Virus record (IMG/VR): IMGVR_UViG_2872185964_000001
Length of the DNA stretch: 11,611 nucleotides
DNA from: a virus
Lineage: Duplodnaviria; Heunggongvirae; Uroviricota; Caudoviricetes
Strand: one strand, 5' to 3'
Shown here in pieces: positions 6,001 to 9,000 of the stretch (the stretch's first letter is position 1; each line of letters opens with the position of its first letter). A program made the position numbers.

Positions 6001-9000
6001 GGGCGGCAAGGAATAAACAACAAAACGTGAAGTAATATTTCAGCTGGCGAATAATACCCCATAGTAATCACTCTGCGCAACTGCGCGGTCTTTTTCGAAT
6101 TGCGGGCTGTCGTCTCTCTTCTGCCATTGTCCTGTAACTTCCGGACTTCAGCCCGCTCCTCATTTTACTCACAATATTATCCCGGCCGGGAGGATTCATG
6201 GCTTTTAAACACTATGATGTTGTCAGGGCGGCGTCGCCGTCAGATCTTGCGGAAAAGCTGACACATAAACTGAAAGAGGGCTGGCAGCCGTTTGGTAGTC
6301 CGGTGGCCATAACCCCTTATACTCTGATGCAGGCGATTGCAGCAGAAGGTGCAGTAATCAGCGCCACCAGCGACCCGGAGTATTACTTTGTTGTGGTTCT
6401 GGCAGGGCAGTCAAACGGCATGTCGTATGGTGAAGGCCTTCCGCTGCCGGGACATATGACCGTCCGGACCCGCGTATTAAGCAACTGGCGCGTCGCAGTA
6501 CGGTGACACCGGGCGGTGCAGCATGCAAATATAACGACATCATTCCGGCGGACCATTGTCTGCATGATGTGCAGGACATGAGCCGTCTTAACCATCCGAA
6601 AGCGGACCTGTCAAAGGGGCAGTACGGAACCGTGGGGCAGGGGCTGCATATCGCCAAAAAACTGCTGCCGTTTATACCGGCGAATGCGGGCATTCTGCTG
6701 GTTCCATGCTGTCGTGGTGGTTCAGCGTTCACCACCGGAGCTGATGGCACATACAGTGACGCGAGTGGTGCCTCGGAGAATTCAACCCGCTGGGGTGTGG
6801 ACAAGCCGCTGTATAAGGACCTTATCGGTCGAACAAAAGCGGCACTGGAGAAGAACCCGAAAAATGTGCTGTTTGCCGTGGTGTGGATGCAGGGGAATTT
6901 GATTTTGGCGGTACGCCGGCAAATCATGCCGCACAGTTTGGTGCGCTGGTTGATAAATTCCGTGCAGACCTGGCGGATATGGCAGGCCAGTGCGTCGGTG
7001 GCTCTGCTGGCGGTGTTCCCTGGATATGCGGGGACACGACGTATTTCTGGAAGCAGAAGAACGAATCCACGTACCAGACGGTGTACGGCAGCTATAAAAA
7101 TAAAACGGAAAAGAATATCCATTTCGTACCGTTCATGACCGATGAGAACGGGGTGAATGTGCCGACGAACAAACCGGAAGAAGACCCGGACATTCCGGGT
7201 ATCGGTTATTACGGTTCGAAATGGCGTGACAGCTCAGCCACCTGGACGTCACAGGACAGGGCGAGCCATTTCAGTTCATGGGCTCGCCGTGGGATTATTT
7301 CCGACCGTCTGGCAACGGCGATTCTGAGCTGCGCGGGTAAGTCTTCTGCGTTTGTTAATGGTACTGCCGGGGTGGTTGTTCCAGACAGGCCGGTTACCAC
7401 CTCAGAGTCTGTAATTTTTTACGATGCCAAAAAAGCTACAGACAATCAGCTGAAACCTTATGGCTGGGACGGTATGTATGGCAGACGCACACTGGTTGAT
7501 GACAGCGGCAATAAAGCTCTGCGAATTGAGAAAAATAACAGCTCGAAATCCTGGTCAATGTACTGTGAGGTGTACTGGCAATAGCGGACACTACCATTTG
7601 TTCTTTTTTTAAGCAGCCATCTGATGATATTTTTCCCTGAAGGCTGCCGGGGAGATATTCCCCAGACGAGAGTGACGACGCTGACGATTGTAGAAAATCT
7701 CAATGTATTCCCGTATTACTGAGATGGCTTCATCCCGGTTATTAAAACGATAGTGGCTCAGGCTCTCATTTTTCAGCGTTCCCCAGAAGCTTTCCATCGG
7801 AGCGTTGTCGTAACAGTGACCTTTACGCGACATTGATGTTTTCAGACCAGACTGCTCCTGTATGACCCGGTAATCGTATGCGCAGTACTGTGAACCTCGA
7901 TCAGAGTGGTGGATTAGCCCGGCAGGTGGGCGCTGGCTCCTGAGCGCCATAAACAGGGCTTTACCTGTCAGCTCTTTTGTCATGCGCTCTCCCATGGCGT
8001 AGCCGACAATTTCGCACGTATAAACATCTTTGATGCCAGCGAGGTACAACCATCCCTCCTGTGTGGCAACATACGTCAGGTCCGCCACCCAGACCTGATT
8101 TGGTGCTGTAGGAGCGAACGTCTGGTTCAGCAGATTTGGCGCAACTGGCAGATTGTGGTTCGGGTTCGTAGTCGCTCTGAACTTGCGTTTCTGCTTACAG
8201 CGTAGCCTTAGCTCCTTACGAAGACGTGCCAGTCGGTCACGACCAACGATGATGCCATTCTCTGCCAGCTCCGTCTGGAGCCGCCGGGTTCCATATGTTT
8301 CGCGAGTGCGGATATGTGCCACCTTAATCTCCAGTTTTAGCCGCTCATCACTTTGTTTTCTGTCTGAGGGTTCATGCTGTACCCAGTTGTAATAACCGCT
8401 CCTGGATACACCAAATACCTGACACATCGCTTCAATGGGAAATTGTTGTCGCCATTGTTCGATTAACGCGTATTTTTCAGCGACTCCTGTGCAAAATACG
8501 CTGTTGCTTTTTTTAATATATCTCGCTCAAGGCGAGCTTCATTTAACGCCTTACGCAGTTGCAGAATTTCAGATTCCAGTTCAGCCACCGTGCGGGAACC
8601 AGGAGTACCGAGCCCTTTTCTGGCGGCGGTAACCCATTGTCCTAAAGTGCCTTCAGGAAGGGATAATCGGGAAGCGCCTTCACTGATCGAAAGTTGATTT
8701 TCAAGAACCGTTCTGACAGCTTCGGCTTTGAACTCTTTAGAGTAACGTTGGTTTTTTCTGCTCATTATTAGCTCCTTCTGATGCCATTCTATTTCAGGAA
8801 GGAGTGTCCGTTAAACTCAGGCTACCTCACTCCCTGGCGGATTTTTGCAGCGAATACAGCAACACAACCGGACGGGCAACGGCTACGCGCTTCGCGTTCC
8901 GTCCAGGCGGTTACGTGGATGATTTGAGATTCTCCGGCACTCAGTGCCAGAAAACGCCACACAAAGGCCGTTTGTGTGTGTACAAGGTGTGGTATATGAT

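What the first reader, a model, noticed from the sequence alone, without database searches (positions are those of the whole stretch)
6198..7584. nanS-p-like sialate O-acetylesterase inactivated three ways: two independent 1-bp deletions and IS600 truncation
The reading frame shifts by -1 near 6449-6453 (…GEGLPLP|…TYDRPDPRIKQLARR continues in another frame) and again by -1 in a G-run near 6893-6896 (VVWMQG|EFDFGGTPANH). IS600 then replaces the C-terminal part (a truncation inferred from the recalled length of intact homologues), and the ORF ends 6 codons into the IS. Multiple hits in one gene suggest relaxed selection, as in Shigella-like genome decay, but homopolymer sequencing error could explain the second shift.
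Basis: partly seen in the sequence, partly recalled or inferred. Interest (0 to 1): 0.4.

Follow-up and report, generated by a model that had tools for sequence, protein, structure and literature searches.

The report
IS600-cut phage esterase; frameshifts likely artefacts
This is an ordinary prophage sialic-acid esterase gene (nanS-p) in a Shigella chromosome that really was cut short by an IS600 insertion, but the two single-base "deletions" are most likely consensus errors of this one assembly, not extra inactivating mutations.

Summary
A nanS-p-like gene starts at 6198. It shifts frame at a G-run at 6449-6451 and again at 6892-6895. It runs into IS600 (7566-8829) and stops at 7582-7584.

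The "three hits" reading does not hold.
- IS600 insertion: real and old. Eight other Shigella assemblies have the same junction. Two of them keep the 3-bp target duplication (CTG) and the 3' rest of the gene. The intact gene was 621 codons, so 164 are lost.
- Two 1-bp deletions: both are losses of one G from a G-run (G4 to G3, G5 to G4). They occur only in this assembly (CP026872.1). Six assemblies sharing the lineage-specific IS2-methylase junction have an unbroken 462-codon ORF. With the two Gs restored, the window's gene is identical to theirs at all 1,389 nt.
- Assembly quality: within about 7.5 kb of the gene, the same assembly has identical one-base G/C-run losses in essential lolE and in lolD. 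It differs from a near-identical draft by 3 such indels but only 1 substitution in 9.4 kb.

This is the signature of homopolymer consensus error, not gene decay. Reads were not available, so it is inferred (about 85%). The rest is already known and ordinary.

The parts
6198..7565 (+). 5' 457 codons of a prophage nanS-p (sialate O-acetylesterase) gene, read across three frames as assembled
   Evidence: Colinear with intact homologues. With two Gs restored it gives a 462-aa ORF identical to P0046, annotated YjhS in S. boydii CDC 3083-94. Matches PDB 3PT5 NanS at E = 1.6e-116.
6204..6347 (+). DUF1737 N-terminal domain (residues 3-50)
   Evidence: Pfam PF08410, E = 1.2e-16. A 2026 preprint on phage phi24B reports this domain as the capsid-binding part of the protein.
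6349..6350 (+). Site where the allele lacks 45 bp (15 codons) of interdomain linker relative to BP-4795; the difference is in frame
   Evidence: Alignment. The short linker is present in every Shigella copy examined.
6411..6413 (+). Codon of the catalytic serine (Ser72, GQSNG motif)
   Evidence: Aligned to the GQSN motif of NanS 3PT5. Its role as the nucleophile is recalled from the NanS structure paper, not tested here.
6449..6451 (+). G3 run that is G4 in all eight related Shigella copies; it causes the first -1 frame change
   Evidence: Private to CP026872.1.
6892..6895 (+). G4 run that is G5 in all related copies and in E. coli homologues; it causes the second -1 frame change
   Evidence: Private to CP026872.1.
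7267..7269 (+). Codon of the catalytic histidine (His358, SHFSS motif)
   Evidence: Aligned to the corresponding His of NanS 3PT5. Its role is recalled, not tested.
7563..7565 (+). CTG, the left copy of the 3-bp IS600 target site
   Evidence: In L007 and L008 the IS is flanked by CTG...CTG and nanS-p resumes after it. In the window the right flank is CTC CCT..., so there is no duplication.
7566..8829 (-). IS600 (1,264 bp) with orfA 8463-8765 and orfB 7609-8427 on the minus strand; it supplies 5 sense codons and the stop (7582-7584) of the truncated ORF
   Evidence: 100% identical to an annotated IS600. Terminal repeats TGAGGT... at both ends. ORFs listed.
8830..10900 (.). Unrelated P4-like island remnant (Icd-like, YlcI/YnfO, BRO-N, AlpA) joined to the IS600 right end by a secondary rearrangement
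   Evidence: 99.9% identical to E. coli islands with those annotations. The segment lies between two inverted IS600 copies and is inverted relative to L010, L011, L012, L014 and L015.

Best explanation
The region is the 5' three-quarters of a lambdoid-prophage nanS-p gene. The encoded protein has three parts: a DUF1737 capsid-binding domain, an SGNH/SASA sialate 9-O-acetylesterase core, and a lectin-like C-terminal domain. The gene lies in a heavily degraded prophage next to potC in a Shigella chromosome (S. boydii / S. dysenteriae group; record CP026872.1).

There is one real lesion. In an ancestor shared with many Shigella strains, IS600 inserted after codon 457 of a 621-codon gene and duplicated the target CTG. 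This cut off most of the C-terminal lectin-like domain. The remaining ORF has 457 gene-derived codons plus 5 IS-derived codons, 462 in all.

Later, recombination between IS600 copies replaced the original right flank (the 3' end of nanS-p and the lysis genes) with a P4-like island remnant. That remnant is itself invertible between two IS600 copies.

The two -1 frameshifts are most probably not biological. Each is the loss of one G from a G-run, and both look like consensus errors of this single long-contig assembly. The true gene in this strain is then the same uninterrupted 462-codon ORF found in its relatives.

Shown here: gene identity, the IS600 junction, the target duplication in relatives, the rearranged flank, and the fact that the indels are private and sit in homopolymers. 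Inferred: that the indels are errors (no reads were available), and that the truncated gene is poorly expressed. The expression inference rests on there being no Q antiterminator gene upstream and three terminator-like hairpins at 5723-6088.
For: (1) The exact 102-aa and 233-aa frameshift products occur on only one contig of the whole collection, CP026872.1.
(2) Thirteen contigs carry the lineage-specific IS2-methylase fusion. Six of the seven places shown (L010-L015) have an unbroken 462-aa ORF; only CP026872.1 is split.
(3) With one G restored at each site, the window's 1,389-nt gene is identical at every base to L010-L015 and differs from L007 and L008 at 2 nt. The 462-aa protein is on 17 contigs, including S. 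boydii CDC 3083-94.
(4) Both sites are G-run contractions, G4 to G3 and G5 to G4.
(5) In 17.1 kb of CP026872.1, all 5 indels against relatives are one-base losses from G/C runs. These include lolE (broken at about codon 135 of 414) and the lolD C-terminus.
(6) The lolDE segment is present in all 5,426 complete E. coli genomes, and all eight listed hits span 643 bp for the 641-bp query. LolCDE is essential in E. coli (established knowledge).
(7) Against the near-identical draft L018 there are 3 indels but 1 substitution in 9,394 bp.
(8) Run-length dependence: 4 of 8 G/C runs of true length 5 or more are contracted, against 1 of about 57 runs of length 4. None of the 68 A/T runs of length 5 or more differs from the relatives that cover them; one A-run differs from L008 only.
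(9) Two sister long-contig assemblies each have a private C-run contraction, one of them inside a tRNA gene.
(10) IS600 history: target duplication and the 3' remainder in L007/L008, the 621-aa reconstruction, and the inverted flank.
Against: - No read-level data could be examined, so error is inferred from comparison only.
- Within the 8.4 kb shared with L007, both private indels fall in nanS-p and none elsewhere. That is a mild clustering, P about 0.03 if placement is random. However, it is equally unexpected under real neutral mutation.
- G-runs are also natural slippage hotspots, and this gene was already dead or dispensable, so real private mutations would be tolerated.
- The potD G6 to G5 change is shared by three assemblies. 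It may therefore be genuine, which shows that not every G-run indel in this genome need be an artefact.
- The sequencing platform (PacBio-only, from a 59-strain historical Shigella project) is recalled from memory. It could not be verified because the paper is not held.
Confidence: 0.85

Rival explanations
1. All three lesions are real. After the IS600 truncation, the dead gene picked up two independent slippage deletions in G-runs in this particular strain.
For: The gene was already truncated and lies in a decayed, IS-ridden prophage remnant, so frameshifts would be neutral. G-runs are natural indel hotspots. Other genuine pseudogenes exist nearby: nagK is split identically in L017 and the draft L018, and the potD shift is shared by three assemblies.
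Against: There are zero substitutions against six sister copies alongside two indels. The indels are private to one assembly among 13 contigs of the lineage. The same assembly shows identical one-base G/C-run losses in essential lolE and in lolD. The ratio of 3 indels to 1 substitution against L018 is not natural.
Confidence: 0.12
2. The strain is a mismatch-repair-deficient mutator, for example after decades of storage and passage, so many G/C-run contractions across the genome are real, including those in nanS-p.
For: The indels are confined to G/C runs and their frequency rises with run length, which is also the spectrum of repair-deficient cells.
Against: A break of lolE at codon 135 of 414 is not compatible with viability (LolCDE essentiality is established knowledge). 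A mutator would also accumulate many transitions, yet only 1 substitution in 9.4 kb separates it from L018. Only contractions are seen, never expansions.
Confidence: 0.02
3. The frameshifts are functional: programmed ribosomal or transcriptional slippage, or phase variation at the G-runs, regulates production of the esterase.
For: Both sites are G homopolymers.
Against: The runs are very short (3 and 4 G). No other copy in 5,426 E. coli genomes or in the Shigella lineage was seen to need slippage, and the relatives read straight through. Two consecutive +1 corrections would be required. No slippery or stimulatory signals are evident.
Confidence: 0.01

Closest known systems
NanS-p prophage sialate O-acetylesterases of Shiga-toxin and other lambdoid phages (933W L0105/z1466; phi24B vb_24B_21/gp84; BP-4795 YjhS)
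   Same: Same DUF1737 plus SASA/SGNH architecture. The catalytic core (window 6487-7568) is almost identical in DNA to the E. coli FORC_069 prophage copy. In the relatives L007 and L008 the gene sits in the same late-region position, between tRNAs and the holin/lysozyme genes.
   Different: It lacks most of the C-terminal lectin-like domain (DUF6645), because IS600 cuts after codon 457 of 621. Its linker is 15 residues shorter than in BP-4795. There are no stx genes and no Q gene upstream; a truncated methylase, IS2 and IS1 lie there instead.
IS-interrupted nanS-p variants in O157 Stx2a phages ('CTR3', i.e. CTR1 modified by an IS element; PMC10462455)
   Same: An insertion sequence in the C-terminal region of nanS-p changes the C-terminal end of the protein.
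   Different: Here the element is IS600, the host is Shigella, and the downstream part of the gene was then removed from the locus by IS600 recombination. Whether the insertion site coincides was not compared.
Chromosomal NanS/YjhS of E. coli (PDB 3PT5)
   Same: The catalytic domain is homologous over residues 56-378 of the 462-aa ORF, including the GQSN serine and SHFSS histidine motifs.
   Different: NanS has neither the DUF1737 domain nor the lectin-like domain, and it is part of the nan regulon rather than a prophage.
YjhS of Shigella boydii CDC 3083-94 (ACD09499.1, UniProt B2U4Z6), 462 aa
   Same: Identical to the window's product once the two Gs are restored. It has the same IS600-derived C-terminus...MYCEVYWQ.
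   Different: The window as assembled is one G short in each of two runs.

Membership tests
NanS-p (prophage sialate O-acetylesterase) | N-terminal DUF1737 domain | tested here: met
   PF08410, E = 1.2e-16, residues 3-50 of the 6198-6506 ORF.
NanS-p (prophage sialate O-acetylesterase) | SASA/SGNH catalytic core homologous to NanS, with the serine and histidine motifs | tested here: met
   PF03629 hit. Match to 3PT5 NanS at E = 1.6e-116 over residues 56-378, with GQSNG (Ser72, 6411-6413) and SHFSS (His358, 7267-7269) conserved. As assembled, the two motifs lie in different frames.
NanS-p (prophage sialate O-acetylesterase) | C-terminal lectin-like jelly-roll domain (DUF6645) | tested here: not met
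   Absent from the window. No part of the L007 3' remainder matches the window. It is present downstream of IS600 in L007 and L008 as a 174-aa DUF6645 ORF. So this is a truncated member, not an intact one.
NanS-p (prophage sialate O-acetylesterase) | Location in the late region of a lambdoid prophage, downstream of Q/tRNAs (and stx where present) and upstream of the holin and lysozyme genes | tested here: met
   Three tRNAs lie upstream. In L007 and L008 the gene is followed by DUF1378, DUF826, holin and lysozyme genes. The order is the same in BP-4795 and FORC_069. In the window itself the downstream part has been replaced.
NanS-p (prophage sialate O-acetylesterase) | Neu5,9Ac2 esterase activity | not testable with these tools
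   Needs an enzyme assay of the 462-aa product.
IS600 (IS3 family) | About 1.26 kb with terminal inverted repeats starting TGAGG, two overlapping ORFs (HTH_Tnp_1, then rve), and near identity to the reference IS600 | tested here: met
   1,264 bp at 7566-8829. Ends read TGAGGTGTACTGG... and TGAGGTAGCCTGA.... ORFs of 100 and 272 aa. 100% identical to an annotated IS600.
IS600 (IS3 family) | 3-bp target-site duplication flanking a simple insertion | tested here: not met
   The window has CTG on the left and CTC on the right. L007 and L008 have CTG on both sides. The window copy is therefore the product of a secondary IS600-IS600 recombination.
Genuine frameshift pseudogene (multi-hit decay) | The frameshifts are reproducible in independent assemblies of the same lineage, or supported by reads | tested here: not met
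   Absent from L007, L008 and L010-L015. The frameshift products occur on a single contig only. Reads could not be tested.
Genuine frameshift pseudogene (multi-hit decay) | The surrounding assembly is free of the same indel type in genes that must be intact | tested here: not met
   lolE and lolD carry the same one-base C-run losses in CP026872.1.

The most novel reading that the evidence does not exclude
The IS600-truncated 462-residue protein keeps the DUF1737 domain and the complete NanS-like catalytic core, and lacks only the lectin-like domain. It may still be an active sialate O-acetylesterase. If so, a clade of Shigella (S. boydii, S. dysenteriae and some S. flexneri) has kept it as a domesticated prophage gene rather than as a dead remnant. 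Chromosomal NanS shows that the core alone can be active. The ORF is unbroken in every other assembly examined.
Probability: 0.2. Interest if true: 0.25.

Novelty: already known. Interest (0 to 1): 0.07.

Why it matters
Biologically it matters little. IS-disrupted nanS-p genes and IS-driven prophage decay in Shigella are well documented, and this exact truncated allele is already in the public protein databases as YjhS of S. boydii.

The practical value is as a caution. In this assembly a count of 'hits' per gene would overstate pseudogenisation, because one-base G/C-run losses appear even in an essential gene. Pseudogene tallies or genome-decay inferences drawn from CP026872.1, and possibly from sister long-read-only assemblies, should be made only after short-read polishing.

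Tried and rejected
- **Primary paper and platform:** I looked for the paper on the assembly to confirm the sequencing platform. No held paper mentions CP026872 or GCA_002950295. The Kim et al. 2018 Genome Announcements paper is cited by others but is not held. The platform therefore remains a recollection.
- **Supplements:** the ShigaPass paper has no supplements held.
- **3' remainder elsewhere in the genome:** I cannot say whether the 3' part was deleted or relocated.
- **Collection scans:** exact-pattern scans of genome contigs and metagenome contigs for the G3 and G4 alleles were considered and not run. The GTDB set holds one genome per species and folds Shigella into E. coli, so it would not sample the lineage.
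- **Draft assemblies as evidence:** S. boydii fragments (P0002-P0015, P0026, P0029) were first read as evidence against the frameshifts. They come from very short contigs that end in or consist of the multi-copy part of nanS-p, so they cannot be assigned to this locus. I gave them little weight and relied on the long-contig loci.
- **45-bp linker gap:** I considered it as a fourth lesion and rejected that. It is in frame, it is shared by all Shigella copies, and published NanS-p lengths vary naturally from 636 to 657 aa.
- **Programmed frameshifting or phase variation:** considered and rejected (see the rival explanations).
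Full report
**1. What is in the sequence**

The window matches record CP026872.1 (assembly GCA_002950295.1), a 4.71-Mb chromosome, at 100% identity over the stretch compared (window 198-11611 against L005); window position p corresponds to record position 235165 + p. Source names attached to identical proteins are Shigella boydii and Shigella dysenteriae.

ORF listing shows three overlapping pieces on the plus strand, each in a different frame:
- 6198..6506, 102 aa, Pfam DUF1737 at E = 1.2e-16;
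- 6503..7138, 211 aa, Pfam SASA;
- 6883..7584, 233 aa.

Aligned to intact homologues, the pieces are colinear parts of one gene. The homologues used were BP-4795 yjhS (645 aa) and an E. coli FORC_069 prophage 'SASA family carbohydrate esterase' (636 aa). From 6487 to 7568 the DNA is almost identical to the FORC_069 copy. The N-terminal module is of the BP-4795 type.

**2. The lesions, located exactly**

(a) Against BP-4795 the allele lacks 45 bp (15 codons) of the linker after 6349. The difference is in frame.

(b) One base is missing at 6449-6451. The nearest Shigella alleles read CTGCCGGGGACATA (Pro-Gly-Thr) and the window reads CTGCCGGGACATA. Against BP-4795 (CCGGAGACA) the same gap looks like a lost A. 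Against the true parental allele it is a G4 to G3 contraction.

(c) One G is missing from the run at 6892-6895 (G5 to G4).

(d) IS600 occupies 7566-8829. It is 1,264 bp long, its ends read TGAGGT..., and it is 100% identical to a copy annotated 'IS3-like element IS600 family transposase'. The ORF reads five IS-encoded sense codons (EVYWQ) and stops at 7582-7584.

**3. The IS600 event is real, old and has a history**

Two other Shigella assemblies carry the same left junction: L007 (CP026766.1, whose companion plasmid CP026767.1 is S. boydii) and L008 (AMGB01000032.1, whose protein is named S. flexneri). In them the IS is flanked by a 3-bp duplication, CTG...CTG. The rest of nanS-p follows as a 174-aa DUF6645 ORF, and then come the DUF1378, DUF826, holin and lysozyme genes.

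Removing the IS and one CTG copy from L007 restores a 621-codon gene. The cut is after codon 457, so 164 codons (26%) are lost. These make up most of the C-terminal domain, which is described as lectin-like and jelly-roll in phi24B.

In the window the right flank reads CTCCCTGG..., with no duplication. It belongs to an unrelated P4-like island with Icd-like, YlcI/YnfO, BRO-N and AlpA genes.

That segment lies between two inverted IS600 copies. In CP026872.1 and L013 it is inverted relative to L010, L011, L012, L014 and L015. The flank TATGTCGGGCGC... abuts the nanS-p IS600 in those five assemblies, but here it abuts the second IS600 copy. The IS600 next to nanS-p is therefore a recombinant copy. 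The original downstream half of the gene has been deleted or moved.

**4. The two frameshifts are private to this assembly**

- The exact 102-aa and 233-aa products exist on a single contig in the 153-billion-gene index.
- The 373-aa methylase ORF that begins at the IS2 junction marks the lineage. It is found on 13 contigs. Of the seven places shown, six (L010-L015) have one 462-aa nanS-p ORF, and only CP026872.1 is split.
- With one G restored at each site, the window's 1,389-nt gene is identical at every base to all six. It differs from L007 and L008 at only two bases.
- The 462-aa product is on 17 contigs, including S. boydii CDC 3083-94, where it is annotated YjhS.

Two indels with no substitutions is not what slow decay under relaxed selection produces.

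**5. The assembly shows the same defect where it cannot be biological**

In 17.1 kb of CP026872.1 (L017), every indel against relatives is the loss of one base from a G/C run:
- the two in nanS-p;
- G6 to G5 in potD, shared with L010 and L015;
- C5 to C4 in lolE;
- C5 to C4 at the end of lolD.

LolE is 414 aa in the near-identical draft L018 and matches the LolE models end to end. In CP026872.1 it is split at about codon 135 into 155 + 261 aa, and LolD gains a shifted tail.

All 5,426 complete E. coli genomes carry the lolDE segment, and all eight listed hits span 643 bp for the 641-bp query. LolCDE is essential in E. coli; that is established knowledge, not something tested here.

Against L018 there are 3 indels and 1 substitution in 9,394 bp.

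The effect depends on run length and on base:
- 4 of 8 G/C runs of true length 5 or more are contracted;
- about 1 of 57 runs of length 4 is contracted;
- none of the 68 A/T runs of length 5 or more differs from the relatives that cover them, apart from one A-run that differs from L008 only.

Two sister long-contig assemblies each have one private C-run contraction of their own, one of them inside tRNA-Arg.

This is the signature of residual homopolymer deletions in a long-read consensus. I recall that the accession block belongs to a PacBio-only project on 59 historical Shigella strains, but I could not verify this.

**6. What the gene is and how it would work**

The repaired product aligns to NanS/YjhS (PDB 3PT5, a 9-O-acetyl N-acetylneuraminic acid esterase) at E = 1.6e-116 over residues 56-378. 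The GQSNG serine motif (Ser72, 6411-6413) and the SHFSS histidine motif (His358, 7267-7269) are both conserved.

Published work shows that NanS-p enzymes remove O-acetyl groups from Neu5,9Ac2 and from mucin glycans, which lets lysogens grow on them. A 2026 preprint reports that the DUF1737 domain decorates the phi24B capsid.

As assembled, the serine and the histidine lie in different frames, so no active product is possible. As it most probably exists in the cell, the 462-aa ORF keeps the whole catalytic core and lacks the carbohydrate-binding module.

Whether it is expressed is doubtful. No Q gene lies upstream; a truncated methylase, IS2, IS1 and an integrase gene lie there instead. Three plus-strand terminator-like hairpins sit at 5723-6088, and no promoter-like site lies between the tRNA genes and the nanS-p start codon; the one match in the scanned region is at 5421-5449, upstream of the tRNAs. 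This is inference.

**7. Comparison with what is known, and verdict**

IS interruption of the nanS-p C-terminal region is already described in O157 Stx2a phages. IS-driven decay of Shigella prophages is textbook. The truncated allele itself is already in UniProt.

Its interpretation is only partly supported: there is one real hit (IS600, followed by IS600 recombination), not three. The two extra 'hits' are most probably assembly artefacts, with a confidence of about 0.85.

Remaining uncertainty: reads were not available, G-runs are also natural hotspots, and the potD shift shared by three assemblies may be genuine.

Interest is low. The useful lesson is methodological: pseudogene counts from this assembly need short-read polishing first.

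Noticed in passing
L017 13055-14998 (CP026872.1, about 6-7.5 kb outside the window's left end): Essential lolE is split at about codon 135, and the lolD C-terminus is frameshifted, each by a one-base C5 to C4 loss. Both genes are intact in the near-identical draft L018. All eight listed E. coli hits, out of 5,426 genomes that carry the segment, are 2 bp longer. This indicates assembly homopolymer errors.
   Followed up: yes
L017 10467 (potD, just outside the window's left end): potD is split 164 + 184 aa by a G6 to G5 change. The change is shared by CP026872.1, PTES01000002.1 (L010) and CP026867.1 (L015), but not by L011-L014 or L018-L020. It could be a genuine lineage pseudogene or a recurrent error at a long G-run.
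   Followed up: partly
window 8830-11611 plus L005 11929-12309: A segment of about 3.1 kb (P4-like island remnant with Icd-like, YlcI/YnfO, BRO-N and AlpA genes, plus an IS1) lies between two inverted IS600 copies. It is inverted in this genome and in L013 relative to L010, L011, L012, L014 and L015, an IS600-mediated inversion polymorphism within the lineage.
   Followed up: partly
window 3047-4377: A complete IS2 (1,331 bp) is inserted exactly at the junction between a truncated IS1 (about 2297-3046) and a 5'-truncated phage N6/N4 DNA methylase gene (4297-5418). The sequence ATCAGT recurs at both IS2 junctions, consistent with a target-site duplication. The insertion is a marker for the lineage of L010-L016 and is absent from this site in L007 and L008.
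   Followed up: partly
window 5459-5708: Three clustered phage-type tRNA genes (Met-CAT, Arg-TCG, Arg-TCT) lie upstream of nanS-p, as in Stx-phage late regions. No stx or Q genes are present. L010 has a private C-run contraction inside the tRNA-Arg-TCG gene (window-equivalent 5595).
   Followed up: partly
window 5723-6088: Three plus-strand terminator-like hairpins (5723-5740, 5945-5964, 6073-6088) lie between the tRNAs and the nanS-p start. Six terminator-like sites were found in 5400-6300, against 1.0 expected. No promoter-like site lies between the tRNA genes and the nanS-p start; the one match is at 5421-5449.
   Followed up: no
protein P0005 (S. boydii EGD7613838.1, partial, 86 aa): This isolate's copy has GQPNG instead of GQSNG, a proline in place of the presumed catalytic serine. 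It could be a real inactivating substitution in another strain. The contig is only 909 bp and cannot be assigned to a locus.
   Followed up: no
L017 12115-13026 (nagK-like ROK kinase): The gene is split 178 + 114 aa in CP026872.1. There is no indel difference from the draft L018, where no gene is called either. It is probably a genuine shared pseudogene, unlike the lolE case.
   Followed up: partly
window 962-2080 and 1-795: A phage integrase gene (372 aa, intact here; 368 aa in L008; IS-disrupted in L007) lies directly next to potC. This marks the attachment-site end of the degraded lambdoid prophage that carries nanS-p.
   Followed up: no
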